From: Gammaproteobacteria bacterium | GTDB taxonomy: Bacteria > Pseudomonadota > Gammaproteobacteria > Arenicellales > Poriferihabitantaceae | Reading direction: 5' to 3' | Assembly: GCA_028817405.1 (NCBI GenBank) | Contig: JAPPPS010000130.1 | Span: 6,345 to 70,344, forward strand | Length of the DNA: 64,000 nucleotides | Part shown: one piece after another, positions 11,962-25,186 of the stretch | Layout: every line of letters begins with the position of its first letter | Numbering within the stretch: position 1 is the first letter of the stretch | Position numbers and translations under genes: made by a program | The notes under the pieces: model-generated | Seen by the model: the letters and a program-made list of their open reading frames with translations, nothing else | Databases searched by the model: none | What the model was told of the DNA's origin: nothing

Positions 11962-12543
11962 TCAACCGTCGCCGGAATCAACCGCCACCGGCAACACCGC
12001 TTCGAGTTCCGCCAGCGCACGGTCGAACTGCTCGTTGACGATGATGTAATCATACTCGTTTGCGTGGCTCATTTCATCCCGCGCCGCGCGCATGCGTTCG
12101 GCGATGACCGCATCGGCGTCTTGGCGGCGCGCGCGCAGCCGCTGCTCCAGCGCATCCAACGACGGCGGCATCACGAACACCGACTTGGCGGCCGGAAACT
12201 GGCGGCGCACCGCGCGCGCGCCCTGCCAGTCGATTTCCAAGATAGCATGTTTGCCGCGCGAAATCAGCGCCTCAATCGCATCCGCCGAAGTGCCGTAGTG
12301 GTTGCCGAACACGCTCGCGTATTCGATGAACCGGCCGGCCGCAATCATCGCCGCAAACGCGGCCGCGTCGACGAAATAATAATCCACGCCGTGCGTCTCG
12401 CCGGGCCGCTGCGCGCGCGTGGTATGCGACACCGCCAGCGCGGCATCCGGCCGCCTGGCCACCAGTCGCCGCGCCAAACTGGTCTTGCCGGCCCCGGACG
12501 GCGCGGAGAGAATGATGACCGCGGGGGAGGGGGAGTCGTTCAT
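11962..12543 (-). CDS. gmk: guanylate kinase
   Basis: SAPSGAGKTS P-loop, SHTTRAQRPGE, YGTS, LEIDWQGA; ATG at 12543 overlaps the upstream TAA. Confidence 0.95.
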   Translation of the reverse strand: MNDSPSPAVIILSAPSGAGKTSLARRLVARRPDAALAVSHTTRAQRPGETHGVDYYFVDAAAFAAMIAAGRFIEYASVFGNHYGTSADAIEALISRGKHAILEIDWQGARAVRRQFPAAKSVFVMPPSLDALEQRLRARRQDADAVIAERMRAARDEMSHANEYDYIIVNEQFDRALAELEAVLPVAVDSGDG

Positions 12544-13685
12544 TAGTAGTCGACGTCCTCCGGTTCGATGCATTCATCTCCCCTTTTTTTCGCTCTTACC
12601 TTTGCCCAATTTAAGATTTTTATGTAATTCTGTCTGGCACTGGTTATGTCAGAAATTGTCGGGTCGTACCAGTGGTGGTGAACCACATTATTTCTAAATT
12701 TTCTAATCTGATGCATGGCGCTGCCAATGGTTTCGTTTTGAGGACGAAACCCTTCAATTTGGTCGTTGAAGTTGTCGAAATAATTTATCGGCAGACTTTC
12801 TTTCGCTAAAAATTCTTGAATGTTGGTGGCAATTCTCGTTGCCCATGCCGCGCATTTCTCGCGCTTTGAAAGAGTGATGCCGGCTGGAATCCATTCCGGT
12901 TGTGTTGATGCGAGCAGAACGTTCACAACCGTGGCGCCAAATTCAATTTCCGACAGATTTTTTTTCCATTTTCCGGCAAGCAAAAGACCGGCCGCCCATC
13001 CGAGTTCGGGAAGCATATCCGCTCCAAGTTGTTTCCCGCCAATTTTTTTATGGCAATGAGAATAGAATGTTTCACCGGTTTCCTTTTGAATGGATTCCCA
13101 GTCAATCAAATGACGATATGCGTCATCAGCCATAAAATCAAAGACACGCTTTATTTTATGCGTGCGAATGTAAGCGATTATCAACAAAGTTAAGAGTGAG
13201 TTTTCTTTCCAGAGTTGTTTAATGCCCCGCTCATCCGAGACATCGCAACTATAGTTTTGGATTGGCTCCGCGGGAGTCAGCAACCCGTAGAGTCCGGATA
13301 CAATCAGCAGATGGTCGCCGGATTGTTCGTCCAGATGCTGGATGTAATCGTCATTATCGCCAACGGCTTTATGAAATGCTTCATAGAATCTTCCCCCGGC
13401 GTATCTTTTTAGCGCGGGCAGATAACGACTATTGCCTGCTCTGTTATTGGGGTTTATGTCCGGTCCGCGTTGCAATTGTTTGTGCAATGAAATCGGCGCC
13501 GGAGAATTCTCCGGGCGTTCTTTGGTGATGTAATCAAACGCCCGGTTACGCGCCGCGGTTAACTCCTGCATCGCAACCGCATTTTCCGGAAACATATCCG
13601 CCATTTTCCGCCCATTAATGCTGCTGTACTCTTGCCCACCGTCGCATTTATGGTTGGAACAAATCGTCAAAATCAAATTACTCAT
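12543..13685 (-). CDS. YaaA/DUF328-like protein with C-terminal HEPN-like motif; low GC
   Basis: PALKRYAGGRFY and LIVSGLYGLLTPAEPIQNY resemble YaaA; C-terminal IRKFRNNVVH; GGAGG SD; AT-rich relative to flanks. Confidence 0.6.
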   Translation of the reverse strand: MSNLILTICSNHKCDGGQEYSSINGRKMADMFPENAVAMQELTAARNRAFDYITKERPENSPAPISLHKQLQRGPDINPNNRAGNSRYLPALKRYAGGRFYEAFHKAVGDNDDYIQHLDEQSGDHLLIVSGLYGLLTPAEPIQNYSCDVSDERGIKQLWKENSLLTLLIIAYIRTHKIKRVFDFMADDAYRHLIDWESIQKETGETFYSHCHKKIGGKQLGADMLPELGWAAGLLLAGKWKKNLSEIEFGATVVNVLLASTQPEWIPAGITLSKREKCAAWATRIATNIQEFLAKESLPINYFDNFNDQIEGFRPQNETIGSAMHQIRKFRNNVVHHHWYDPTISDITSARQNYIKILNWAKVRAKKRGDECIEPEDVDY

Positions 13686-14720: not shown

Positions 14721-15908
14721 TCAAAGTTGCTCGCAAGCCGCGTCCGCGTGATACGGCGAATGCCGCTTGACCGCGTCGATATACCGCTCGACGCCGGATG
14801 TTTCATGCCCGACAAAACGCGCCACGGCATCGGCGAAAGCCGGCTCCGCCAAATAGTGCAGCGACCGCGTCGGCGTGGGCGAGAAGCCGCGCGCGATTTT
14901 GTGCTCGCCCTGCGCGCCGGGGTCGAAGCGCCGCAAACCGCGCTCGATGCACAACTCGATGCCTTGGTAGTAGCAGACCTCGAAGTGCAGGCAGTCGACC
15001 ATCTCGCGGCAGCCCCAGTGGCGGCCGTATAAAGTGTCGTCGTCCAAGTACATTAACGCGGCCGCGATGGGGTGTTCGGCATCGCCATCGCGCTGCGCCA
15101 ATACCAATTGCACTTGCTCTGGCATGGCATCGGCGACCGCGCGGAAAAAGTTTAAGTTGAATGCCGGGTAACCGTACTTGCGGTCGTAGATGGCGCGGTA
15201 CATCGAAGTGAAGTCGCGCCAGTCTTGCGCGGTGGCGGTATGACCGTCGAGGCGGCGGACGGTGACGCCGGCTTGCGCAACGCGCGCGCGTTCTTGGCGG
15301 ATGTTCTTGCGCTTTTTGGCTTTCAATGTGGCGAGGAAATCATCGAAGTCGCGGTAGTCGCGGTTGTGCCAGTGGAACTGGCAGTCGAGTCGCGATAACG
15401 CGCCGCGGATGTTGAGTTGCTCGAACTGGCGCGGCGCAACAAACAAACTATGCGCGCCGCTGAAGTTGCCGCGCCGCATCAATTCGCGCATGCCGTCGAC
15501 CAACTTCGCGGCGATTGTTGTCTCAAAGCCGCGCTCATCTTCGCGCACTAAGACGCGTTGCCCGGTCGCGGGCGTGAACGGAATCGCGTTCACCAACTTC
15601 GGGTAATACGCCAAGCCCGCGCGGTGGAACGCCTCGGCCCACGCGTGGTCGAACACGAACTCGCCCCACGAGTTGTGCTTTTCATACAACGGCATCGCGC
15701 CGACCAATTCATCGCCGTCAAAGCAGCCAAGATGGCGCGGAATCCAACCGCTTGATTCGCCGACGCAACCGTGCCGCTCCATCGCCGCCAAAAATTCATG
15801 GCGGACAAACGGATAACGCCCGCGCGCCAGCGCATTCCACTGGCGCGCGTCGATGTCATCAATAACGGAAAAAGTCGCGATTTTCACTGCGAAACGCAGT
15901 TGGGGCAA
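14721..15908 (-). CDS. GNAT/FemAB-like N-acetyltransferase (DUF482 type); start uncertain (TTG 15908 or nearby GTG)
   Basis: HSWGEFVFDH-like, YYPKL..AIPFTPATG, LYGRHWGC, HFEVCYYQGIE, GAQGEHK. Confidence 0.85.
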   Translation of the reverse strand: MPQLRFAVKIATFSVIDDIDARQWNALARGRYPFVRHEFLAAMERHGCVGESSGWIPRHLGCFDGDELVGAMPLYEKHNSWGEFVFDHAWAEAFHRAGLAYYPKLVNAIPFTPATGQRVLVREDERGFETTIAAKLVDGMRELMRRGNFSGAHSLFVAPRQFEQLNIRGALSRLDCQFHWHNRDYRDFDDFLATLKAKKRKNIRQERARVAQAGVTVRRLDGHTATAQDWRDFTSMYRAIYDRKYGYPAFNLNFFRAVADAMPEQVQLVLAQRDGDAEHPIAAALMYLDDDTLYGRHWGCREMVDCLHFEVCYYQGIELCIERGLRRFDPGAQGEHKIARGFSPTPTRSLHYLAEPAFADAVARFVGHETSGVERYIDAVKRHSPYHADAACEQL

Positions 15909-15960
15909 AGCGGCATTTTATCGCGGATAGGCGCGAGAGGGTAGGGCGGCTGCGGCGCAA

Positions 15961-16050
15961 TTCCCACCGCCACGCCCACAGTCCGCCCCCACCCGCCACG
16001 CCCGCACCTCACCCACCCGCCACGCCCGCAGGCTGTTAAGCGGGCGCCAG
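15961..16050 (+). repeat. REP-like palindrome copy preceded by two partial copies
   Basis: cgccacgcccgcaggctgttaagcgggcgc at 16018-16047; partial ccgccacgccc units at ~15966 and ~15993. Confidence 0.75.
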
Positions 16051-16165
16051 CACCTTTCCCCATCAGCGCGGCGGCGGCACAAAAATCGGCGATTCACCCA
16101 TTTTCGCAAGTTTGCTCCCACCGGCGGCCACAAATTCAGCGGCGAAAATAATACCGCGGAATGTA

Positions 16166-16757
16166 TGAACAGGTTCAAACACATTTGAGACATTTTTAGC
16201 CCAAAAAGGTCGGGTAGCCTCGCAGTTTTTCCATCTACAGAAAACCGGAGTCCACCCGATGCAGATAGAGAGTTTGCGGGTCAAATCATACCGCAGTTGG
16301 AAAGTCGACGAAGCGGCCGGCCGCGCCAAACCCAAACGCCCACGCGCGTTCGAACACCATGCCAAACGATGGCAATACGGCATGCGCGCCGCCGCGCCCG
16401 GCGAACTGGTGCAGATAGACCACATGAGCGTGTCGTTCCCCGGCGCCAGCGTGAAAAACTTCACCGCAGTATGCCCAACCACCGGCTACCTGACCGCCCA
16501 CGCATACAGCCGCGCCACCAGCCACAACGCCGCGCGCTTCCTCGAACATGTGCTGCACGCCATGCCGTTCGCCATCCACTCCATCCAAGTGGACGGCGGC
16601 AGCGAGTTCCGCGCCGCCTTCGAACACGCCTGCCAACAACACTACTGCCACCACCGACCACACGGCGGCAAACACCAAAACTTCCAAACCCCAATGGCAT
16701 ACTATCAATCCCTCAAACAGGCCGCCTGAACTGTCTCATATGTATTGAACCTGTACA
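16166..16757 (+). mobile_element. internally deleted IS481-like insertion sequence (~590 bp)
   Basis: imperfect terminal inverted repeats TGAACAGGTTCAAACACATTTGAGACA (16166-16192) and TGTCTCATATGTATTGAACCTGTACA (16732-16757), enclosing a transposase fragment. Confidence 0.75.
16259..16729 (+). pseudogene. truncated DDE integrase-core transposase
   Basis: PGELVQID...IQVDGGSEF retained; the segment that should carry the catalytic Glu (between ACQQ and HYxHHRPH) and the N-terminal HTH appear to be missing. Confidence 0.7.
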
Positions 16758-16762
16758 GCCCC

Positions 16763-16792
16763 TTGACGGATTATTATCGGCGCGCTTAATAT
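16763..16792 (+). promoter_or_regulatory. sigma70-like promoter
   Basis: TTGACG-N18-TAATAT upstream of ATG 16832. Confidence 0.5.
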
Positions 16793-16831
16793 CCCAAACC
16801 CGCATCATTTTGTCGCAACCGGACCTCCCGC

Positions 16832-17425
16832 ATGGACATCCTTATACTGATTCTTGTCGCAATCGTGTTGTTTGTTGTCGGCGCCGTTTTTGCGGCAAAG
16901 AACAACGCCGAACAAAAGCGGCAAAGCGTTGAACGGCAGGACGCCATCGCCGAAGAGTATGTGGTGCGAGCCAACCGAGGCGGCGGCTTGCCGACGGTGG
17001 ACACCAATGTCATGTTGAAGCGCGGCGAGGCCGCGTTTTATTCCGCGCCGACCGCTTTGTTTGAGACGCGCGCGGTGCGCCACAGCGCCGCCGGGCATGG
17101 CGGCATCCGCGTGGCGCGCGGCGTGTGGATTGGCGGCACGCGCGGCAAGGCGGAAAGCCATCAAGAGTGGCGTCGCATCGATGACGGGCATTTGACCGTG
17201 ACCAATCAACGAATTATTTTTGACGGCGGAAAAACCAATCGCACGGTGCCGCTGGACAAACTGATTTCTTGCGACACCAACATCGGCGAAGTGGAAATTT
17301 CGGCGAGCAACCGGCAAAAAAGCATGGTGTTCACGGCCGGGGAACAAGCCGGCGTGTTGGGCAGCGTCATTAAAATCACTTCCAACGCCATCAACGCCGG
17401 CGCGCCTTATTCGCCGGCCGGTTAA
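16832..17425 (+). CDS. membrane-anchored hypothetical protein with PH-like beta domain
   Basis: N-terminal hydrophobic helix; LKRGEAAFY...GIRVARGVWIG...DDGHLTVTNQRIIFDG pattern resembles bacterial PH-like folds. Confidence 0.6.
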   Translation: MDILILILVAIVLFVVGAVFAAKNNAEQKRQSVERQDAIAEEYVVRANRGGGLPTVDTNVMLKRGEAAFYSAPTALFETRAVRHSAAGHGGIRVARGVWIGGTRGKAESHQEWRRIDDGHLTVTNQRIIFDGGKTNRTVPLDKLISCDTNIGEVEISASNRQKSMVFTAGEQAGVLGSVIKITSNAINAGAPYSPAG

Positions 17426-17449
17426 GTTGCCGACGCGAATTGATAAACG

Positions 17450-17959
17450 ATGAGCGAACAGTCCCACTACGATGTGTTGGGAATCTCGCGCGATGCCGAT
17501 GCTACGGAAATACGCCGCGCATACAAACGCAAAGCGCAACGGTATCACCCCGACAAACGCGAGAATAAAGCGTTCGCCGACCATAAATTCAAACGCATAC
17601 AAGAAGCGTATCGCGTGTTGTCATCGCCGAGTGCGCGCGCCGAATATAATGCGCGACATGCGTTTGACGAAGACATCGACGCCACAAACAGCGCCGATAA
17701 CAAAACGCATGCCGCATCAATCGACGCGCGTTATTACATTTATGAAAACTGGCAAGCGGGCCCGCACAAAGCGGTCATTCATCACGCGGAATGCGGGCAC
17801 TGCAACCACGGTACCGGCCGCTCCGGCCGCAGCACCAATCCGCGTTACGGCAAATGGCATGGCGGCTTTGGCTCACTGGATGATGTCATGGCGTATCGGG
17901 AGACCTTGGGTGTCGCGGTTAAAAAGGAGTGCGCATGCATCGAACGATTGGCGCGTTAG
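17450..17959 (+). CDS. J-domain (DnaJ) protein with C-terminal His/Cys-rich domain
   Basis: HYDVLGIS...IRRAYKRKAQRYHPDK...FKRIQEAYRVLS; C-terminal HHAECGHC...CAC. Confidence 0.85.
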   Translation: MSEQSHYDVLGISRDADATEIRRAYKRKAQRYHPDKRENKAFADHKFKRIQEAYRVLSSPSARAEYNARHAFDEDIDATNSADNKTHAASIDARYYIYENWQAGPHKAVIHHAECGHCNHGTGRSGRSTNPRYGKWHGGFGSLDDVMAYRETLGVAVKKECACIERLAR

Positions 17960-18087
17960 AAGTGCCGGCGTGTTGTGCACTTTACCGCCCCAACCGCGGT
18001 CGCTCCGGCAAGCCGGCGCCATGCGCTGATGCCGACACCGGCTGCGCTATACTTCACCGTCGCCAACCCGCCGCCAGAAGAACCGTC

Positions 18088-18597
18088 ATGAAAAACAAAA
18101 ACGCCCTCACCGTCCGCTCCAACCCGGGTTTAGCCGAACTCAAACGCGCGGAAAATCTCCTCCGAATCACTTCGGAGATACTCGGCAAATCGATTGTGCC
18201 TGGCCACAACCGCACCGATGAACAGGGGCGGAAGCAGGGACATTGGGTTGAGCGGTTTGCCATTGGCTTTGGGGGAGACTTTGTGGAAGAAGATCCATAT
18301 GTTGACGGCGAGAGGCACGGCCACTGGGTTGAGCGGTGGGCTGGCACTGTGCGGGAAGGTCCATATGTGAACGGCAAGAGGCACGGCCATTGGGTTGAGC
18401 GATGCAGCGTTGGCAGTGTGTGTGAAGGCACATATGTTGACGGCAAACGGCATGGCCATTGGGTTAGGCGGTTTGCCAGTGGCAATGTGGATGAAGGCGC
18501 ATATGTGGACGGCAAAGAGCACGGCCGTTGGGTTGTGCGGACACCGGACGGAACAGAATGGACAATAAATTGGCGTCACGGGGAAATCGTGGAATAA
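18088..18597 (+). CDS. MORN-variant repeat protein, paralog 1 (5 repeats)
   Basis: ~23-aa repeats EGxYVDGKRHGHWVER; start set at ATG 18088 by match to paralog 2. Confidence 0.8.
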   Translation: MKNKNALTVRSNPGLAELKRAENLLRITSEILGKSIVPGHNRTDEQGRKQGHWVERFAIGFGGDFVEEDPYVDGERHGHWVERWAGTVREGPYVNGKRHGHWVERCSVGSVCEGTYVDGKRHGHWVRRFASGNVDEGAYVDGKEHGRWVVRTPDGTEWTINWRHGEIVE

Positions 18598-18623
18598 CTC
18601 CGCTATCGTGTGCGATGTTCCAC

Positions 18624-18665
18624 TGCCACGCCCGCAGTCTGCTGAGCGGGCATCCAGCGTTTTTT
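18624..18665 (+). repeat. REP-like palindrome copy
   Basis: tgccacgcccgcagtctgctgagcgggcatccagcgtt. Confidence 0.75.
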
Positions 18666-18714
18666 CCGCCATTCCGTGTTTGACGCGGGGGCGGAAATTT
18701 CTCGCCCCGACCGC

Positions 18715-18745
18715 TTGACACTGCGGTCGAGAGTGTGCGATAAGG
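18715..18745 (+). promoter_or_regulatory. probable sigma70 promoter
   Basis: perfect TTGACA, then TGcGATAAG; GGAGG SD before ATG 18864. Confidence 0.45.
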
Positions 18746-18863
18746 TGAATCGATTTACCAAGCACCCAACACCGACACCATCCCATTGGCTGGAAGCGCC
18801 GAACCCATCGGCAAAGTGCTGAAATCTTGCAATGTATCACTGTCAAACTAATCGGAGGTCAAA

Positions 18864-19178
18864 ATGCGAATCATAGTAACGGCTTGGAATAATGGCGGTC
18901 CTGGCTACGGATTGGGTATCCGCCATGCTGATGTGCGCCTTTTCCGGCGCGAATGGGGCACGGTTACAATCGAATTGCCAGATGGTACCGTGGCGCGCGC
19001 CGACATCGATAAGGACAGTTTTTATGCGAGCTGTCCGCACTTAATTCACAGGAGCATTAAGGAGTGGTTTCGCGCCAACGGCTATCTAACTTGGTCCAGC
19101 GGGAAACCGCCCAAGTTTGAATTGGAATTAATTGACCAAAACAAAGGCGTGTTTCGCCTGTACGATAACCAGAACTGA
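18864..19178 (+). CDS. conserved-looking hypothetical protein (TAWNNG...GKPPKF)
   Basis: strong SD, lower GC, globular composition; resembles a small family seen in accessory regions (recall only). Confidence 0.7.
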   Translation: MRIIVTAWNNGGPGYGLGIRHADVRLFRREWGTVTIELPDGTVARADIDKDSFYASCPHLIHRSIKEWFRANGYLTWSSGKPPKFELELIDQNKGVFRLYDNQN

Positions 19179-19223
19179 CCAGTGCCCGAATCTGACCGGC
19201 CAGCCACACCGCCACGCCCCCAC

Positions 19224-19340
19224 CCGTCACGCCTGCAGTCTGTTGAGCGGGTGTCCAGCGTCTTTACGGTTTTGGTCCGCACCGGAAAGAGAAGACGTTG
19301 GATATCGGTACTGGACTCGACCCGGCCAGCGTGGCGGTGA
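19224..19340 (+). repeat. REP-like composite element
   Basis: ccgtcacgcctgcagtctgttgagcgggtgtccagcgtcttt...aagacgttgga...ctggactcgacccggccagcgtggcggtg (inverted outer arms). Confidence 0.7.
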
Positions 19341-19343
19341 AAT

Positions 19344-19416
19344 GGGTCACTAAAAAGGGTTACCGAAAAGGGTCACTAAAAAAGGTCTTGACACCTTTGG
19401 CAACGAGTAGTTCAAT
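19344..19416 (+). promoter_or_regulatory. three 12-13-bp direct repeats abutting a sigma70 promoter
   Basis: gggtcactaaaa/gggttaccgaaaa/gggtcactaaaa, then TTGACA(19388)-N17-TTCAAT. Confidence 0.55.
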
Positions 19417-19481
19417 CCCACTCAATGGCAATTGCCAGAAAACCCGTTCCACTTTCGCATAAATTCACTTTGAGGAATACA

Positions 19482-19874
19482 ATGTTAGACCCGGAAAATC
19501 CTGAAAGCACGCACGGCTACGAGCCCGAAGATTGGCAAAAAGCCAAAGCGCAAGCGACAGCCCACTTGGTCAGCGTGGCAAAGCGTCAAGATTGGGAAAC
19601 ATATGGCGAACTGGTTAAGGAAATCGACGCCATTTCATTTGCTCCCAACGACTTTGCTTTGGCCGCTCTGTTAGGTCAAATAAGCAGAGAGGAATATTAT
19701 GCTGGCCGAGGTATGCTTACCGCAATCGTGGTGCATAAATATGGCGACAAGATGCCCGGCAAGGGTTTTTATAAACTTGCGCGGTATCTGGGCTTGGATA
19801 TATCCGACAAGGAAGCGCTCTGGGTTTCCGAAACAAAGAAAGTTTGGAACTACTGGAAAAACCAGAGGGGCTAA
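19482..19874 (+). CDS. hypothetical winged-helix-like protein
   Basis: TYGELVKEI...LAALLGQIS...GRGMLTAIVVHK...PGKGFY; GAGGA SD before ATG 19482 (alternative start 19425). Confidence 0.7.
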   Translation: MLDPENPESTHGYEPEDWQKAKAQATAHLVSVAKRQDWETYGELVKEIDAISFAPNDFALAALLGQISREEYYAGRGMLTAIVVHKYGDKMPGKGFYKLARYLGLDISDKEALWVSETKKVWNYWKNQRG

Positions 19875-19992
19875 CAGCAGAGGGGATAACAGGATGGAAT
19901 GTTCCTGATTCCCGTCCGCGCTACTGTATAAACATTGCCGCCCGACTGCGCTACACTTCGCCATCCGCAAACCCGTCGCCAGAAGAACCGTC

Positions 19993-20562
19993 ATGAAAAC
20001 CAAAAATGCTCTCACCGTCCGCCCCGAGCCGGGTTTGTCCGAACTCAAACGCGCCGGCAACCTCATCCGAATCGCTGAGAGGATACTCGGCAAATCGATT
20101 GTGCCTGGCCACAACCGCACCGATGAACAGGGGCGGAAGCAGGGACATTGGGTTGAGCGGTTTGCCGATGGCCAGGTAGAGGAAGGCCCCTATGTGGACG
20201 GTGAGCGGCATGGCCATTGGGTTGAGCGATGGGTCGATGGCGTTGTGACGAAAGGTCCGTATGTGAACGGCGAGCGGCACGGCGATTGGGTTGTGCGGTT
20301 TGCCGATGGCTCTGTGTGGGAAGGTCCTTATGTGGACGGCAAGGAGCACGGCGATTGGGTTGAGCGGTGGGGCGATGGCGATGTGTGGGAAGGCCCCTTT
20401 GTGGACGGCAAGCAACACGGCCATTGGGTTTTGCGGGGTGCCGATGGCGATGTGTGGGAAGGCCAATTTGTGAATGGTGAGCGGCATGGTCGTTGGGTTT
20501 CGCGGGAGCCGAATGGAACGGAAGCGGTAACGCATTGGCATCACGGGGAAATTGTGAAGTAA
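19993..20562 (+). CDS. MORN-variant repeat protein, paralog 2 (6 repeats)
   Basis: same leader as 18088 gene; EGPYVDGxxHGxWV repeats. Confidence 0.8.
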   Translation: MKTKNALTVRPEPGLSELKRAGNLIRIAERILGKSIVPGHNRTDEQGRKQGHWVERFADGQVEEGPYVDGERHGHWVERWVDGVVTKGPYVNGERHGDWVVRFADGSVWEGPYVDGKEHGDWVERWGDGDVWEGPFVDGKQHGHWVLRGADGDVWEGQFVNGERHGRWVSREPNGTEAVTHWHHGEIVK

Positions 20563-20844
20563 CCCCCTCCGCAATCGGTTGCTCTCGCCGTCATGCCCCA
20601 GTCCTGTTCGTGGAAACCATGCCTAGTTTGGCGGTGTTTTTTGCTGGGGGTGGCGATAGGGTTTGCCGTACAATCTTGACAACAGCAATGGTAGGTGCAT
20701 TAATTCCGTTTCCATGAAAATGGCGGTTGCAGTTGAGTGATTGTTCCCGCCATTTTTTTACCCTGTCGCCAACACTCGGCGGCGGAGCATTTGTGGCGAC
20801 TGTGCTACAGTTCGCTTGTATTCGACCAACTATGAGAGGCAAAC

Positions 20845-21237
20845 ATGACGGTATTTGGCAAAACAGCAGTTAGAGCCACTGAAATGCAATGTCGCGGTGC
20901 ATGCGATTCGCCGAGAATTGCCTGGACCGAGGCGGTGAAAAGTGAGACGAAAAGCATAAATATGCGGAGTAAAGTATGCCCTCGGTCGGCATATTTAGGT
21001 CTGTGCGAATATGGCTTAGTTAAAGGCGTGCCGCGCGGTGAATATCTGAAAAAATCATCCGAAAAGTTGAATAAAAAACATGCTGTTGATGCTGTGACCA
21101 AATTAAGGAAAACACCAGAACTGAAAAACAAGCCAATGAAGCTGTGGCGGCTTGTTATTCCTGAACCTAAGCAACATGATGGTCAAATGCATGTTGTGAC
21201 TGCTTTATGGAAAAGCGGTTTGATTCGTTCGGCCTGA
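20845..21237 (+). CDS. DUF6979-like hypothetical protein
   Basis: SPRIAW...CPRSAYLGLCEYGLVKGVPRGEY...KQHDGQMHVVTALW; GAGAGG SD and TGcTACAGT extended -10 upstream. Confidence 0.65.
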   Translation: MTVFGKTAVRATEMQCRGACDSPRIAWTEAVKSETKSINMRSKVCPRSAYLGLCEYGLVKGVPRGEYLKKSSEKLNKKHAVDAVTKLRKTPELKNKPMKLWRLVIPEPKQHDGQMHVVTALWKSGLIRSA

Positions 21238-21249
21238 TATTCGGGCGTT

Positions 21250-21283
21250 CGCGCCTACCGTCGTTGACGCGGCGGTAGGCGCG
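21250..21283. terminator. GC-rich hairpin, possible terminator
   Basis: 11-bp perfect stem cgcgcctaccg/cggtaggcgcg just after the stop; no clear U-tract. Confidence 0.45.
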
Positions 21284-21398
21284 TGTAGCCGTCCCCCCAC
21301 TCAACAGACTGCGGGAGTAGGCTTCCAGAAGACGGAGTGGGGGCGGCGCGTTTTACACGGTGCTTCGCGCCGTGCTAAAAGTCCGGCGACATCAACCC

Positions 21399-21428
21399 GC
21401 GCCCGCTTAACAGACTGCGGGCGTGACG
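21399..21428 (-). repeat. REP-like palindrome copy in inverted orientation
   Basis: reverse complement cgtcacgcccgcagtctgttaagcgggcgc, 28/30 identical to 16018-16047; a further partial core lies at 21300-21320. Confidence 0.8.
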
Positions 21429-21531
21429 GCGGGGGAGCCGCGGGCGTGAAGTGGCGGACATTGCGGGCGAGAGAACCGTGGGCGCGATGAGTGGGGGACT
21501 GCAAGTGCGCCGGATATGTGTCGGTGGTGAC

Positions 21532-21545
21532 TATAATAAAGCATG
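21532..21545 (+). promoter_or_regulatory. -10 box 5 nt before glnE ATG (leaderless-like)
   Basis: TATAAT-aaagc-ATG. Confidence 0.5.
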
Positions 21546-24500
21546 CTTCGATTGCGTCTTGCGGTGTTGGAATTTTTCGAGCGGGTTATCGGCCGGTTGC
21601 GTCGCGGTGAATCCGCGGCGGCGGTTGCGCCGGTCGCCGACAGACCTGCATCCACTGGTGCCGCCAAGTCGGCGCTACCATCCGCGGCGTTGCATCCGTT
21701 CTCACTGGCGCGGTTGCCGGCGGAATTGGCGGAGGCGTTTGAGGAGTCGTGGCAGGGGTTTTGCGAGGCGTGCGCGGAGCAGGGGGTCTCTTTTCTGGCG
21801 GCGACGACGCGTGCCGAGTTGCCGCAGGTTTGGGCGGCGAGTGATTTTGTGGCGACCGCTTGCATTCGCGCGCCGAGGTTGCTGGATGAGTTAATCAACA
21901 GCGGCGAACTGGACCGGCGCGGGCGCGGCGCCGACCTTATCGCGCGGGTTGAAAACGAACTGGCCGGTTGCGCTGATGAGGAGGAATTGGATGCGCGGTT
22001 GCGGCGCACGCGGCGGCGGGAGATGGTGCGCATGGCGTGGCGCGATTTGTCCGGCGCCGGCGATTTGGACGAGACCATGGAAGGCGTGTCGGCGTTGGCC
22101 GAGTCGTGCATCGACGGCGCGCTTGCGCATCATCACAAGTGGCTGAGCGCGCGTTTCGGTACGCCGCGCGATGACAACGGCGACGCGGTCGGAATGGTCG
22201 TTTTAGGCTTGGGCAAGTTGGGCGGCGGCGAACTCAACTATTCATCCGACATCGATTTAATCTTCGCCTATCAACATGCGGGTCAGACGGTTCATGATGT
22301 CGACCATGATGGCAACGTCGGCGCCGGCGATAAAAAAGTCGGCGATAAAAACGCCCGCACGCTCGACAACCATGAATACTTCACCCGCTTGGGCCGCAAG
22401 TTAATCGCCTCGTTGGAGCGCGTCACCGCCGACGGTTTTGTATTCCGCGTCGACATGCGTTTGCGGCCGAACGGCGACAGCGGGCCGCTGGCGTTGTCGT
22501 TTGCGGCGATGGAGCAGTATTACCAATCGCACGGCCGCGACTGGGAAAGATATGCGCTCATCAAAGCGCGCGCGGTCGGCGGCGACCGCGACGCCGGCGC
22601 GCGACTGCAAGCGCAACTCACGCCGTTCGTCTACCGCAAGTATCTCGACTTCACCGCTTTCGATTCCATCCGCGAGATGAAACAACTCATCGAACGCGAA
22701 GTAAAAAAGAAAGGCATGCAGGACGATGTTAAGTTGGGCCCCGGCGGCATCCGCGAAATTGAATTCTTGGTGCAGAGTCACCAGTTAATCCGCGGCGGAC
22801 GCAACCGCAACTTGCGCACGCAGTCATTGCGCCGGGCGTTGCGCGCGCTGGCCGACGAAGGCGTGGTCGACGCCGCGGCGCGCGCGCGGCTGCTTCAAGA
22901 TTACCGCTTCTTGCGCAACACCGAACACCGCGTGCAGATGGTCGCCGACCGTCAGACGCAGCGTTTGCCGGATGCGTCGTTCGCGAGGTTGCGTTTGGCG
23001 TGGAGCATGGGATTCGATTCGTGGGCTGCATACCGAAACCAACTCGACCGTCACCGCGCGCATGTGGAGCGCGCGTTCGGCGACATTCTCGGCGCGCCGG
23101 AGGCCGACGGTGGTTCTGTTGGCGGCGACACCGAATCCGACGCCGACCTCGACGCCGCGTTGGCTGATGTCTGGCGCGACGCCGCGAGTCAATCGGTTGA
23201 TGAAACGCTGGCCGCGGCCGGTTTCACCGACTTCGCGCGCGTGGCGCAGTTGTTGAAAGACTTCCGCGCCGGTCGTTTGTATCAAATGTTCTCCGCCGTC
23301 GAACGCGACCGCATCGACCGTTTGATTCCGCCGGCGCTGCGCCAAGCCGGCGGCCGCGCGCATCCGGAGCGCGCGCTCACCGCGTTCATCTCGGTGCTGG
23401 AATCCATCGGCCGCCGCTCGGTGTATTTAAGTCTTCTCATCGAAAACCCGCTGGCGCTGGCGCAACTGTTGTCGTTGTGCGCCGCCAGTCCATGGATTTC
23501 CCGGCACATCGGTACGCATCCGGTGGTGATGGACGAGTTGCTGAGCCCGCCGGTCGATGTGCGCGCGTACGGCGCGGCCGACATTCGCCGCGAATTGCAA
23601 CGCCGCTTGACGCAGACCGGACATGCGGCCGGCGACGCTTCCGCCACCGTCGCCGGCGATGACGAAGAGTCGCGCATGAACGCGCTGCGCGAGTTCAATC
23701 ATGCGCAAGTGTTGCGCGTGGCGGCCGCGGATGTGTTGGGCGTTCTCGATGCCGGCGAAGTGTGCCGGGTATTGAGTCAGTTGGCGCGGGTGATTCTGCA
23801 GCAAGTGTTTGATGATGCGTTGCAGTGGGTGGCGGTTAAACGCGGCGGCGATGGCGACGCTGAAAGCGGCGGAAACGAAACCGGCGCGCGCGGCCGGGCC
23901 GGGGTTATCGCGTACGGCAAGTTCGCGGCCGGCGAGTTGGGTTATCACTCCGACCTCGACATCGTGGTTTGTTATGACGACGCCGGCGACGGTGAAAATG
24001 GCGACGCGGTTGCCGGCGAAACTGTCGCCAACGCCGGCCATGAAAACACCGCCGCGGAAACCGGCTACTACTACGCCCGCGTCGGCCAGCGGTTGATTCA
24101 TCTTCTCACCGCGCGCACCCACGCCGGCCCGTTGTATGAACTGGACATGCGCTTGCGGCCGAGCGGCCACAGCGGCACGCTGGTCACTTCATTGGCCGGC
24201 TTCGCCAAGTATCAGTTGGCGGACGCTTGGACTTGGGAGCATCAGGCGTTGGTGCGCGCGCGGGCGGTGGCCGGCGGCGAGGATTTTTCGCGGCGATTCG
24301 AGCGGGTGCGCCGCGAGGTGTTGTGCCGGGCGCGCGCGCCGCAGCGGTTGCGCGCCGACATCGCGGCGATGAAACAAAAAATGGCGCGCGCGAACAGTCA
24401 GTCGGACAAACAATGGTGCGACTTGAAACTCGGCCGCGGCGGCATCGTCGACATCGAATTCATCGTGCAGTATTTGGTGCTGCGCGCCGCGCATGAGCAC

Positions 24501-24725
24501 CCGGCCGTGGTGCGCCCGCGCACCACCGCCGACACTATCGACGCGCTGCGCGACGCCGGGGCGCTTGCCGGCGATGCGGCCCGGCAACTGCGGCGGATTT
24601 ACCAATTGTACTTGCGCAAGTCGCTGGACTTGAAACTGATGGAGCAACCGCTGCGCGTGGCGTGGGATGAGTTCGCCGATGAGCGCGAATGCGTTGAGGG
24701 GTTGTGGGGGGAGTTTTTTGGGTGA
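21543..24725 (+). CDS. glnE: bifunctional glutamine synthetase adenylyltransferase/adenylyl-removing enzyme
   Basis: two nucleotidyltransferase domains (LGKLGGGELNYSSDIDL; YGKFAAGELGYHSDLD), DMRLRP twice, KLGxGGIxxIEF twice. Confidence 0.95.
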   Translation: MLRLRLAVLEFFERVIGRLRRGESAAAVAPVADRPASTGAAKSALPSAALHPFSLARLPAELAEAFEESWQGFCEACAEQGVSFLAATTRAELPQVWAASDFVATACIRAPRLLDELINSGELDRRGRGADLIARVENELAGCADEEELDARLRRTRRREMVRMAWRDLSGAGDLDETMEGVSALAESCIDGALAHHHKWLSARFGTPRDDNGDAVGMVVLGLGKLGGGELNYSSDIDLIFAYQHAGQTVHDVDHDGNVGAGDKKVGDKNARTLDNHEYFTRLGRKLIASLERVTADGFVFRVDMRLRPNGDSGPLALSFAAMEQYYQSHGRDWERYALIKARAVGGDRDAGARLQAQLTPFVYRKYLDFTAFDSIREMKQLIEREVKKKGMQDDVKLGPGGIREIEFLVQSHQLIRGGRNRNLRTQSLRRALRALADEGVVDAAARARLLQDYRFLRNTEHRVQMVADRQTQRLPDASFARLRLAWSMGFDSWAAYRNQLDRHRAHVERAFGDILGAPEADGGSVGGDTESDADLDAALADVWRDAASQSVDETLAAAGFTDFARVAQLLKDFRAGRLYQMFSAVERDRIDRLIPPALRQAGGRAHPERALTAFISVLESIGRRSVYLSLLIENPLALAQLLSLCAASPWISRHIGTHPVVMDELLSPPVDVRAYGAADIRRELQRRLTQTGHAAGDASATVAGDDEESRMNALREFNHAQVLRVAAADVLGVLDAGEVCRVLSQLARVILQQVFDDALQWVAVKRGGDGDAESGGNETGARGRAGVIAYGKFAAGELGYHSDLDIVVCYDDAGDGENGDAVAGETVANAGHENTAAETGYYYARVGQRLIHLLTARTHAGPLYELDMRLRPSGHSGTLVTSLAGFAKYQLADAWTWEHQALVRARAVAGGEDFSRRFERVRREVLCRARAPQRLRADIAAMKQKMARANSQSDKQWCDLKLGRGGIVDIEFIVQYLVLRAAHEHPAVVRPRTTADTIDALRDAGALAGDAARQLRRIYQLYLRKSLDLKLMEQPLRVAWDEFADERECVEGLWGEFFG

Positions 24726-24736
24726 ATTGGTCCATT

Positions 24737-25186
24737 ACCGTCACGCCCGCGATTTGTTAAGCGGGCGTCCAGCGTCTTTGCTTTTTGTTGCTTCTGCGCA
24801 AGCCCAATTAAAGCCTGCCCCCGCCCACGAGCGGGGGACTCTGGATTCCGTATCGGTGAGGAATATAGTCGCTGCGCTTCCTTATTCCTCTACCGCACGG
24901 AATGACGGCCCCTGGCATCGTCACGCCCGCAGTCGATTCCCCTCACCGTCACGCCCGCGATTTGTTAAGCGGGCGTCCAGCGTCTTTGCTTTTTGTTGCT
25001 TCTGCGCAAGCCCAATTAAAGCCTGCCCCCGCCCACGAGCGGGGGACTCTGGATTCCGTATCGGTGAGGAATATAGTCGCTGCGCTTCCTTATTCCTCTA
25101 CCGCACGGAATGACGGCCCCCGGCATTTTCCAACCGCACGGAATGACTGCCCCTGGCATCGTCGCGGCCGCAGTCGATTCCCCATC
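24737..25186. repeat. tandemly duplicated MITE/REP-like element (208-bp period, ~2.3 copies)
   Basis: 24737-24912 identical to 24945-25120; unit bounded by CCGTCA...TGACGG with an internal gaggaata/tattcctc hairpin. Confidence 0.9.

What the first reader, a model, noticed from the sequence alone, without database searches (positions are those of the whole stretch)
16018..21428. REP-bracketed, REP-punctuated array of short accessory genes: a possible integrase-free cassette system
Seen: seven short, lower-GC, all plus-strand genes sit between core genes. A 30-bp palindromic element (CGYCACGCCCGC-N10-GCGGGCG) occurs forward at 16018-16047 and inverted at 21399-21428 (28/30 identical), bracketing the island. 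Further copies lie 25-65 bp after the stops at 18597, 19178 and (partial, inverted) 21237. Unlike integron cassettes, most modules carry their own TTGACA/-10 promoter and SD, and no attC or integrase is visible. Known: short palindromic repeats such as Neisseria dRS3 act as recombination or integration sites. Inference: genes are added or shuffled here by recombination at these palindromes using a trans-acting enzyme.
Basis: partly seen in the sequence, partly recalled or inferred. Interest (0 to 1): 0.75.

Follow-up and report, generated by a model that had tools for sequence, protein, structure and literature searches.

The report
Strain-variable gene array punctuated by REPs
Between two housekeeping genes of an uncultured sponge-symbiont bacterium lies a row of small, self-promoted genes separated by copies of a genome-wide hairpin repeat; the gene set differs from strain to strain and about half of the swap points lie at the repeats, but ordinary recombination between repeated DNA explains this better than a dedicated cassette machine.

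Summary
Window 15909-21542 lies between a FemAB-like/GNAT gene and glnE. It carries eight plus-strand units and five copies of a GC-rich palindrome, plus a sixth decayed copy. Two corrections apply. The first "gene" is an IS481 transposase remnant. The palindrome is a genome-wide REP-like family of at least 214 copies, which also brackets housekeeping genes.

Other sponge-metagenome assemblies show at least eight haplotypes of this locus, with modules gained, lost, duplicated and moved. Six of about 13 resolved junctions lie within 25 nt of a REP array, against 18% expected (P about 0.02). One crossover lies inside an array and is seen in three independent data sets.

The other junctions lie elsewhere:
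- in the homologous 5' regions of two MORN paralogs (a 1.9-kb indel);
- at the ends of the IS remnant;
- inside a promoter;
- inside a gene.

No RAYT was found. No attC architecture is present.

Best reading: this is a flexible hotspot of promoter-ORF-REP units. They are shuffled by general recombination among dispersed repeats (REP arrays, MORN paralogs, promoter/leader repeats) and by IS activity. It resembles Neisseria minimal mobile elements and intergenic mosaic elements. A dedicated REP recombinase is not excluded (about 10%).

A covarying 190-nt leader RNA with no Rfam match was also noticed.

The parts
14721..15908 (-). FemAB-like/GNAT gene, the conserved left flank
   Evidence: Pfam FemAB_like E 6e-145 and Acetyltransf_6. 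Found in 39 of 41 related genomes.
15963..16047 (+). REP array: two 5' half-units (CCGCCACGCCC...) plus the full hairpin unit at 16012-16047
   Evidence: nhmmer E 9.5e-10 and sequence. Strain B carries a 400-bp repeat mosaic abutting its left edge.
16160..16757 (+). Internally deleted IS481-family element: inverted repeats at 16162-16192 and 16732-16757, transposase fragment ORF at 16259-16729
   Evidence: NCBIfam transpos_IS481 E 9.3e-14, profile positions 107-219 of 284. Both ends recur elsewhere in the genome and in G002/G003. Haplotypes L105, L133 and L136 lose homology exactly at its two ends.
16832..17425 (+). g2, a 197-aa membrane-anchored protein of unknown function, preceded by promoter-like TTGACG-18-TAATAT at 16763-16792
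   Evidence: No family hit. Promoter scan. Identical protein listed in 33 index blocks of the collection, 23 contigs read.
17450..17959 (+). J-domain protein (169 aa)
   Evidence: Pfam DnaJ E 1.3e-22. Carries an internal 167-bp deletion in haplotype L104.
18088..18597 (+). MORN-repeat protein 1. Its 5' region 18038-18267 is 89% identical to 19942-20172.
   Evidence: 69-nt repeat units and direct repeats D3/D11. Weak Pfam MORN hit. Paralogs on contigs C86, C67, C69, C23, C95 and C11.
18619..18652 (+). REP copy after MORN1
   Evidence: nhmmer E 1.3e-7. Conserved in haplotypes D and E. A decayed counterpart sits at the orthologous place in the distant relative L124.
18713..18745 (+). Promoter-like CTTGACAC-N17-GCGATAAG ahead of g5. 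In other haplotypes and relatives the same promoter type heads the structured leader RNA.
   Evidence: Sequence. Homology of window 18656-18721 to L124 2579-2642.
18864..19178 (+). g5, a 104-aa orphan protein and a mobile module
   Evidence: No family hit. Found right of MORN1 (A, D, E) or left of a YaaA-like gene (L133, L136). Homologs of 60-82% identity sit in other short-gene arrays.
19206..19265 (+). REP array after g5 (half-unit, full unit 19218-19253, tail TCCAGCGTCTTT). A demonstrated recombination junction.
   Evidence: nhmmer E 4e-9. Nucleotide comparison of A, D, E, L133/L136 and L105 places the crossover inside the array. A Logan contig joint 19206->15965 appears in run X7.
19254..19420 (+). 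Spacer plus g6 promoter (TTGACA...TTCAAT). Together with the REP it forms a 190-nt unit that is duplicated on both sides of g6 in haplotype D.
19482..19874 (+). g6, a 130-aa orphan protein. Depth is zero in runs X7, X8, X9 and X12 and across most of the gene in X11, X13 and X19.
   Evidence: Depth 0 over 19360-19964 and over 19573-19839. No family hit.
19993..20562 (+). MORN-repeat protein 2. The 5' homology starts at 19942.
   Evidence: In haplotype C a single MORN gene joins the J-domain gene's 3' end to this gene's 3' part.
20586..20613 (+). Decayed REP copy after MORN2
   Evidence: CGCCGTCATGCCCCAGTCCTGTTCGTGG compared with the REP consensus. Intact at the equivalent place in L134, nhmmer E 4e-13.
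20845..21237 (+). DUF6979 protein (130 aa), preceded by TTGACA at about 20676
   Evidence: Pfam DUF6979 E 6.6e-37. PHROG 5039 E 8e-19. Absent from the dominant strains of runs X6, X11-X13 and X19 and from haplotype D.
21297..21315 (-). Partial inverted REP
   Evidence: nhmmer E 0.032, profile positions 16-34.
21399..21435 (-). Inverted REP ahead of glnE
   Evidence: nhmmer E 8.6e-11.
21543..24725 (+). glnE, the conserved right flank. The true start is probably near 21690.
   Evidence: Pfam GlnE E 4e-141. Relatives align from residue 52. Other haplotypes fall below 86% identity left of 21681.
24736..24976 (+). Two further REP copies (24736-24768, 24940-24976) in a 182-bp tandem duplication downstream of glnE

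Best explanation
The FemAB-glnE spacer of this sponge-symbiont gammaproteobacterium is a flexible accessory-gene hotspot. Relatives are titled Arenicellales / 'Ca. Poriferihabitaceae'.

**Building blocks.** The hotspot is built from self-contained transcription units. Each has a near-consensus sigma-70 promoter, a short ORF and often a trailing REP array. In other haplotypes some units also carry a structured leader RNA.

**What the palindrome is.** It belongs to a genome-wide REP-like family of at least 214 copies. A typical array has tandem 5' half-units plus one full hairpin. The family colonises spacers of all kinds.

**How content changes.** Modules are gained, lost, duplicated and moved by general (RecA-type or microhomology-dependent) recombination between dispersed repeats. 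Three kinds of repeat serve as portable homology: REP arrays, the two MORN paralogs, and shared promoter/leader segments. An IS481 insertion with an adjacent deletion adds to this. Exchange among co-resident strains is assumed as well.

**Shown:** the repeat family, the haplotypes and the junction positions.
**Inferred:** the recombination pathway, and that REPs act only as homology rather than as enzyme sites.
For: **Generic repeat family.**
- 181 copies at E<1e-3 and 214 at E<0.1, with 63 at contig ends.
- Densities are 0.29-0.36 per kb in divergent, convergent and co-directional spacers.
- Orientation is 27 the same as transcription against 29 opposite, and position within the spacer is not biased.
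- Other five-copy clusters flank sarcosine-oxidase, Kef-type transporter, dapB and RmuC genes.
- The family also occurs in same-genus genomes G003, G009 and G011.

**Hotspot.**
- Same-genus G011 has FemAB and glnE adjacent, with a spacer of about 450 bp, no REP and no island.
- G003 carries a REP and then a different gene.
- Depth profiles in 12 sponge runs show parts of the island missing. In X6, 18.7-21.4 kb is at depth 3-9 against 134. g6 is at depth 0 in X7-X9.

**Haplotypes A-H** come from independent ENA, JGI, NCBI and Logan assemblies.

**Junctions at REPs.**
- g5's 3' flank is joined, inside the REP array, either to the spacer and g6 (A, D, E) or to a YaaA-like gene (L133, L136). L105 carries a 151-aa gene left of the same REP.
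- D and E are identical through MORN-REP-tail and diverge straight after it.
- In D a REP-spacer-promoter unit is duplicated on both sides of g6, starting exactly at the REP's 5' edge.
- Overall 6 of about 13 junctions lie within 25 nt of a REP, against 18% of spacer bases (P 0.013-0.07).

**Junctions at other repeats.**
- L114 nt 1-85 equals window 17955-18040 and then runs into MORN2. The X11 joint 18067->19984 has a side of 161 nt.
- Homology ends at the outer IS end, 16756.
- L136 shows that the IS replaced the stretch from the leader element through the 75-, 89- and 237-aa genes, g5 and the YaaA-like gene.

**No dedicated enzyme.** No PF01797 hit in the genome.

**Precedent.** The literature associates BIME/REP clusters and NIMEs with recombination and with sites of plasticity (PMC3184786). 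It defines minimal mobile elements as different gene cassettes between two conserved genes that are exchanged by homologous recombination (PMC3082526).
Against: - The junction statistic rests on about 13 hand-curated events, and some may share history.
- REP arrays of 36-60 nt are near the lower limit for RecA-dependent exchange, so an assisting enzyme cannot be ruled out.
- The genome is only 93% complete and breaks at repeats, so a RAYT or other recombinase could be missed.
- All haplotypes come from short-read metagenome assemblies, so phasing beyond single contigs is unknown.
- Competence or another route of DNA exchange in this uncultured symbiont is assumed, not shown.
Confidence: 0.55

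Rival explanations
1. REPs are pure passengers. The array varies through paralog recombination, IS activity, illegitimate recombination and strain-to-strain replacement. REPs lie near junctions only because they fill many spacers of this array, and because alignments between unrelated contexts end at any shared repeat.
For: - The family is generic.
- Seven of about 13 junctions are not at REPs.
- Haplotype B and the distant relative L125 have few REPs inside their arrays.
- The REP after MORN is positionally conserved and decays in place, which points to old residents rather than active sites.
- The enrichment is only about 2.5-fold on a small sample.
Against: - The g5 | REP | YaaA-like-gene junction lies inside the array and has unrelated flanks on either side in different haplotypes. 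It is seen in two JGI assemblies and one Logan contig.
- The duplicated unit in D starts exactly at the REP edge.
- D and E diverge exactly after the REP tail.
Confidence: 0.25
2. It proposes a dedicated, integrase-free cassette system in which promoter-ORF-REP units are excised and inserted by a trans-acting enzyme that recognises the REP hairpin. Candidates are a RAYT-like HUH enzyme, an IS110/Piv-type recombinase or an unknown nuclease.
For: - Modules such as g5 occur at different positions and are always bounded by REP arrays in this species.
- Six junctions lie at REPs.
- One IS110-family transposase gene exists at C106:4178-5218 and is embedded in related mosaic repeats.
- IS110-type elements are known to target REPs (PMC1525189).
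Against: - No Y1/RAYT was found.
- REPs flank housekeeping genes without any variation being implied.
- Crossover points within the arrays are not at one fixed position. They fall in a half-unit in L133/L136, after the tail in D/E and at the 5' edge in D.
- Duplication of the 165-nt spacer together with the REP fits homologous exchange, not site-specific exchange.
- Many junctions are unrelated to REPs.
- g5 and DUF6979 homologs in L124/L125 sit in arrays without REPs between the genes.
Confidence: 0.1
3. The array is a degenerate integron cassette array (a cluster of attC sites lacking an integrase), and the palindromes are attC sites.
For: The genes are short, same-strand ORFs of unknown function separated by imperfect palindromes. 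The REP loop contains GTTAAGC, which fits the attC R' core GTTRRRY.
Against: - The element is one 6-7-bp stem with a 10-nt loop. It has no paired R''/L''-L'/R' architecture.
- It occurs more than 200 times next to housekeeping genes.
- The cassettes carry their own promoters.
- No integrase lies next to the array.
Confidence: 0.03

Closest known systems
REP/BIME elements of enterobacteria and REPINs of Pseudomonas (PMC3116915, PMC3333891)
   Same: A short GC-rich imperfect palindrome that is extragenic, present in hundreds of copies, clustered into arrays, lineage-specific, and associated with recombination and with IS targeting.
   Different: - No RAYT (Y1 transposase) was found in this genome.
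- Arrays consist of tandem 5' half-units plus one full hairpin. 60% of the 177 full-length copies (E<1e-3) carry at least one extra half-unit.
- Adjacent full copies are mostly direct (14) rather than inverted (2), so they are not REPIN doublets.
- About a third carry a TCCAGMGTCTTT tail that resembles the inverted repeat of a co-resident MITE.
Neisseria minimal mobile elements and intergenic mosaic elements (dRS3/RS arrays) (PMC3082526; PMC3184786)
   Same: Different whole-gene cassettes lie between two conserved genes in different strains. No dedicated mobility gene is involved. Mosaics of short repeats lie between the cassettes. Exchange is thought to occur by homologous recombination.
   Different: The phylum-level setting differs: an uncultured sponge symbiont whose competence is unknown. 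Here several junctions lie within the short repeat arrays themselves and in paralogous genes inside the array, not only in the conserved flanks. The cassettes carry near-consensus promoters.
Integron gene-cassette arrays / CALINs
   Same: Rows of short same-strand ORFs of unknown function, separated by palindromic sites, with content that varies between strains.
   Different: There is no attC architecture, no integrase and no attI. The cassettes have their own promoters. The palindrome is a genome-wide REP.
REP-mediated tandem duplications in Salmonella/E. coli (Shyamala, Schneider and Ames 1990; my own knowledge, not checked here)
   Same: REP copies act as short portable homology at the join-points of duplications, as in haplotype D (the REP-spacer-promoter unit on both sides of g6).
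   Different: Those were laboratory-selected duplications of large segments. Here the events are natural polymorphisms of 0.5-2-kb modules.

Membership tests
REP (repetitive extragenic palindromic) elements | Short (20-40 nt) GC-rich imperfect palindrome able to form a stem-loop | tested here: met
   36-nt unit. A GCCCGC/GCGGGC stem of 6-7 bp with a 10-nt loop gives -12 to -15 kcal/mol for the hairpin itself in the folds of the copies at 16012 and 18619.
REP (repetitive extragenic palindromic) elements | High copy number, dispersed, extragenic | tested here: met
   214 copies at E<0.1. About 180 lie in spacers according to a crude gene call, on most contigs.
REPIN-RAYT system | Single-copy RAYT (Y1_Tnp, PF01797) in the genome | tested here: not met
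   No PF01797 hit in the 93%-complete assembly, while the control genomes did give hits. A gene lost in an assembly gap cannot be excluded.
REPIN-RAYT system | REPs organised as inverted doublets (REPINs) | tested here: not met
   Adjacent full copies within 250 nt: 14 direct and 2 inverted.
Integron cassette array / CALIN | attC sites with R''-L''...L'-R' architecture, 55-140 nt | tested here: not met
   The element is a single short hairpin. Only a GTTAAGC word resembles the R' core. No attC covariance model was available.
Integron cassette array / CALIN | Integron integrase and attI nearby, with promoterless cassettes | tested here: not met
   No tyrosine recombinase lies in the island or its flanks. 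The units have TTGACA-type promoters. A genome-wide IntI search was not done.
Minimal mobile element (Neisseria sense) | Two conserved flanking genes with different whole-gene cassettes between them in different strains | tested here: met
   FemAB-like and glnE are conserved neighbours in G011, G020, G022 and G023. At least eight haplotypes lie between them.
Minimal mobile element (Neisseria sense) | Incorporation by homologous recombination in the flanks, with no associated mobility function | tested here: inconclusive
   Many junctions are internal (REP arrays, MORN paralogs). An IS481 remnant is present in haplotypes A and B. The recombination pathway cannot be tested in silico.

The most novel reading that the evidence does not exclude
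Promoter-ORF-REP units in this symbiont lineage form a genuine cassette system. A REP-array-specific recombination activity excises, duplicates and re-inserts the units at other REP arrays. The enzyme could be the lone IS110/DEDD-type protein or one not yet recognised. This would make the system an integron analogue in which a genome-wide REP family serves as the attachment site.
Probability: 0.1. Interest if true: 0.8.

Novelty: new variant of a known kind. Interest (0 to 1): 0.45.

Why it matters
**Population genetics of a symbiont.** The locus is a well-resolved natural example of how an uncultured, host-restricted symbiont keeps a combinatorial set of small accessory genes. These include MORN 'eukaryote-like' proteins, orphan genes and a J-domain protein. 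All sit at a single chromosomal site, and at least eight haplotypes are recoverable from public sponge metagenomes.

**Role of short repeats.** REP arrays, paralogs and promoter/leader repeats can all serve as junction points. This bears on the long-standing question of whether REPs shape genome plasticity or merely reside in it.

**A testable hypothesis.** If a dedicated enzyme were found, this would be a new kind of gene-cassette platform. Even without one, the locus is a good target for long-read population genomics.

**A by-product.** The covarying leader RNA is a candidate new cis-regulatory RNA family.

Tried and rejected
- **Transcription terminators.** The terminator scan found 10 sites against 9.6 expected, none at a REP. 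The T-run is not adjacent to the stem, and REPs show no orientation bias relative to transcription.
- **RAYT-mobilised REPINs.** No PF01797 hit, and the copies are not inverted doublets.
- **Integron/attC.** The architecture is absent.
- **Defence island or prophage.** No PADLOC hits. The only PHROG hits are to families of unknown function, for the J-domain, MORN1, DUF6979 and YaaA-like proteins.
- **Joints at REPs in Logan contigs with sides under 30 nt** (16046->18695, 16046->21399, 16014->21403). I treated these as uninformative repeat matches. Only 19206->15965 (side 42, 13 shared letters) and 18067->19984 (side 161) were used.
- **My own interim conclusion after** was that breakpoints avoid REPs. 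I revised it when further haplotypes showed junctions inside REP arrays.
- **The apparent breakpoint at 21681.** This is a change in divergence across glnE's 5' region, not a rearrangement.
- **Known RNA family for the leader.** No Rfam match.

Full report
**Setting**

The window is C160:6345-70344 of a 2.86-Mb, 160-contig, 63% GC assembly that is 93% complete. The stretch is held almost word for word by sponge metagenome runs. The nearest named relatives of its FemAB-like protein are MAGs titled Candidatus Spongiihabitans, Candidatus Poriferihabitaceae and Arenicellales. The organism is therefore an uncultured gammaproteobacterial sponge symbiont. The family placement is an inference from these titles.

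**The observation**

The island runs from 15909 to 21542. A FemAB-like/GNAT gene (14721-15908, minus strand) lies on the left and glnE (21543-24725) on the right. It holds eight plus-strand units:
- an IS481-family transposase fragment (16259-16729; NCBIfam E 9e-14) inside terminal inverted repeats (16162-16192 and 16732-16757);
- a 197-aa membrane protein, g2;
- a J-domain protein;
- MORN-repeat protein 1;
- a 104-aa orphan, g5;
- a 130-aa orphan, g6;
- MORN-repeat protein 2;
- a DUF6979 protein.

GC falls to 0.45-0.60, against 0.61-0.67 outside the island. A sixth, decayed copy follows MORN2. TTGACA-type promoters precede g2, g5, g6 and DUF6979. The generic scan is only weakly above chance, with 6 sites against 3.0 +/- 1.8.

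**What the palindrome is**

A profile built from 63 strict matches finds 181 copies at E<1e-3 and 214 at E<0.1. 63 of them lie within 600 nt of contig ends, so the assembly breaks at them and the count is a lower bound.

The unit is CCGCCACGCCCGCAGTCTGTTAAGCGGGCG, a 6-7-bp GC stem with a 10-nt loop. Of the 177 full-length copies at E<1e-3:
- 60% are preceded by one to five tandem 5' half-units;
- a third are followed by TCCAGMGTCTTT;
- neighbouring full copies are direct (14) rather than inverted (2).

With a crude gene call, about 180 copies are extragenic. Density is the same in divergent, convergent and co-directional spacers, at 0.29-0.36 per kb. Orientation relative to transcription is random, 27 against 29. 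Copies are strongly clustered, with a median gap of 2.8 kb. Three other 5.5-kb windows hold five copies each, and these flank housekeeping genes. In this window glnE is itself bracketed (21399 and 24736). The family also occurs in three other genomes of the genus. No Y1/RAYT gene was found. One IS110-type gene lies on C106, embedded in related mosaic repeats.

This is therefore a REP-like family, not a local cassette signal. The island is still enriched. Four or five of its 9 spacers are occupied, against 6.6% genome-wide, so P is about 0.002 (my own binomial arithmetic on the counts). Part of that excess comes from duplication of a MORN+REP unit.

**The locus varies**

In same-genus G011, FemAB-like and glnE are adjacent and divergent. 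About 450 bp separates them, with no REP and no island. In three other genera of the family they are 0.9-1.7 kb apart. The closest species, G003, has a REP and then a leader RNA plus a lipoprotein gene next to FemAB.

Laying Logan contigs of 12 sponge runs on the island shows strain-level differences:
- the dominant strain of X6 lacks 18.7-21.4 kb (depth 3-9 against 134);
- X7-X9 have g5 and DUF6979 but no g6 (depth 0);
- the dominant strains of X11, X12, X13 and X19 lack g5, g6 and DUF6979.

**Haplotypes**

Exact-protein look-ups returned longer contigs from independent ENA, JGI, NCBI and Logan assemblies. I aligned these to the window.

| Haplotype | Loci | Order of units |
|---|---|---|
| A | the window, L096, L097, L103, L106 | as listed above |
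| B | L098-L102 | J-domain, MORN(259 aa), 99-aa, 105-aa, REP(-), repeat mosaic, leader RNA, 124-aa, MORN(337 aa), IS |
| C | L104, L111-L114 | J-domain, one MORN, DUF6979, glnE |
| D | L129, L130 | MORN, REP, g5, [REP-spacer-promoter], g6, [REP-spacer-promoter], 99-aa-like, 105-aa, REP(-), mosaic, glnE |
| E | L134 | MORN, REP, 199-aa, leader, DUF7669, REP, MORN1, REP, g5, REP |
| F/H | L133, L136 | FemAB, REP, leader, 75-aa, 89-aa, 237-aa, REP, g5, REP, YaaA-like(-), g2, J-domain |
| G | L105 | 151-aa, REP, YaaA-like(-), g2, J-domain |

The three B-specific genes have no homolog in this genome. More distant arrays (L123-L125; 60-82% protein identity for g5) hold partly the same modules: g5-like, MORN, the 99/105-aa pair and DUF6979. 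Their order differs, and L125 ends at glnE.

**Where the junctions are**

Junctions within 25 nt of a REP array:
1. *Right of g5.* A, D and E continue into the spacer and g6. L133 and L136 continue into the YaaA-like gene. The g5 flank is identical up to the first half-unit, and the right side equals L105 from the full unit onward, so the crossover lies inside the array. The same g5-to-16012-type-array joint is seen in a Logan contig of run X7. It has a side of 42 nt and only 13 shared letters, so it is not a k-mer artefact.
2. *Left of that same REP.* L105 has a 151-aa gene where L133/L136 have g5.
3. *After MORN.* D and E are identical through MORN-REP-TCCAGCGTCTTT and diverge at the next base.
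4. *Around g6 in D.* The second REP-spacer-promoter unit starts exactly at the REP's 5' edge. Unequal exchange between two REPs would give this structure.
5. *In E.* A REP ends 23 nt before the MORN1 5' region.
6. *Next to FemAB.* Indels of repeat mosaic abut the REP array.

Junctions not at REPs:
- The 1905-bp indel (MORN1 body, REP, g5, REP, g6) has both ends in the 230-bp, 89%-identical MORN 5' regions. L114 nt 1-85 equals 17955-18040 and then continues as MORN2. The X11 joint 18067->19984 has a side of 161 nt.
- Both ends of the IS481 remnant are junctions. L136 shows that the IS replaced the stretch from the leader element to the YaaA-like gene, which indicates an insertion with an adjacent deletion.
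- L104 loses homology at 16780.
- The J-domain gene carries a 167-bp internal deletion in L104.
- One junction lies inside a promoter in D.
- The g6/MORN2 boundary lies at 19941/19942.

REP +/- 25 nt covers 18% of the spacer bases of the seven haplotypes. Six of 13 junctions gives P = 0.02, and five of 12 gives P = 0.05.

**Interpretation**

The array is a set of promoter-ORF-(REP) units that are reshuffled. REP arrays take part in this more often than chance predicts, and in at least one well-supported case the crossover lies inside the array. They share the role with any other repeated DNA at the locus.

The crossover positions within the arrays are not fixed. In one case a 165-nt spacer is duplicated together with the REP. 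These features fit general recombination on short portable homology. This is what the literature reports for BIME/REP clusters and for Neisseria mosaic elements (PMC3184786). The locus also matches the definition of a minimal mobile element (PMC3082526).

A dedicated REP-specific enzyme has no positive evidence, but it cannot be excluded in an incomplete genome. The integron reading fails on architecture.

**Limits**

- All haplotypes are short-read contigs.
- The junction list is small and hand-curated.
- The gene call used for genome-wide statistics is crude. It mis-stranded or missed several low-GC genes in the island itself.
As a result RAYT could not be searched in relatives, RNA evidence could not be sought, and the L136 junction could not be checked on reads.

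**Side finding**

A leader of about 190 nt with its own consensus promoter heads several modules in other haplotypes. It occurs at least 11 times in this genome, upstream of unrelated genes. Twelve copies align with a closing stem in which 7 of 9 pairs show compensatory changes. 96.8% of cells are paired. The covariation score is 0.309, against 0.108 in shuffles (0 of 500 reach it) and at most 0.075 when the partners are slid. It has no Rfam match.

Noticed in passing
Not in the window island itself (only its promoter type at 18713-18745). Genome contigs C23:25559-25755, C67:3835-4032, C56:4174-4376, C86:9607-9806, C11:151-347, C69:8501-8627, C118:109-316, C68:4815-4942. Loci L099:13080-13280, L136:424-616, L125:190-412, L124:2620-2851, L009:60-340 (minus strand).: A structured leader RNA of about 190 nt with its own consensus promoter. 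It has at least 11 copies per genome and lies upstream of unrelated genes (signal-peptide proteins, MORN, J-domain, DNA methylases). Covariation is strong: 7 of 9 pairs of the closing stem are compensatory, and the score is 0.309 against 0.108 in shuffles (0 of 500). It has no Rfam match and is a candidate new cis-regulatory RNA family.
   Followed up: partly
window 12543-13685 (-): A low-GC (44%) YaaA/DUF4145-like gene next to gmk is itself hypervariable. Window 12529-13077 does not align between haplotypes A and B. A second YaaA-like gene, only 41% identical, lies inside the island in haplotypes L104, L105, L133 and L136.
   Followed up: partly
window 24737-24918 and 24945-25126: A 182-bp tandem duplication directly after glnE, each copy carrying a REP. 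A related copy lies inverted inside the island of haplotype D (L129:2443-2642).
   Followed up: no
L099:8740-9130; genome C106:5300-5560; many REP flanks: Other hairpin repeat families form mosaics with the REP: TTTGGAGCG...GCTCCAAA, AAAATCCGT...ACGGATTTT, CTCCGGC...GCCGGAG, and a MITE-like unit of 60-70 nt with GAGTCCAGAGTCTTTA inverted repeats. The mosaics differ between strains.
   Followed up: no
genome C106:4178-5218: The only IS110-family (DEDD) transposase gene found in the genome. It is flanked by the mosaic repeats, which fits the known preference of this IS family for REP-like targets.
   Followed up: partly
same-genus genomes G001, G002, G004-G010: glnE was not found at E<=1e-30 in 9 of 11 same-genus genomes, and it is not next to the FemAB-like gene there. 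This is either real loss of glnE in most of the genus or a miss by the search's first-look filter.
   Followed up: no
window 21543-21690: The annotated glnE ORF probably starts too early. Relatives align only from residue 52. Window 21436-21680 is homologous between haplotypes but below 86% identity, while the gene body is 94-96% identical.
   Followed up: no
genome C86:2417-4117, C67:33890-34528, C69:25922-26461, C23:23480-23956, C95:6661-7215, C11:336-950: At least six further loci hold MORN-repeat paralogs, including several hits within 1.7 kb on C86. This is an expanded 'eukaryote-like' protein family with a variable number of 23-residue repeats.
   Followed up: no
genome-wide: A CTTGAC promoter word lies within 220 nt downstream of a REP, in the same orientation, for 20 of 158 copies. 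The other three configurations give 3-6 of 158, and random spacer windows give 5%. REP-then-promoter composites therefore recur.
   Followed up: partly
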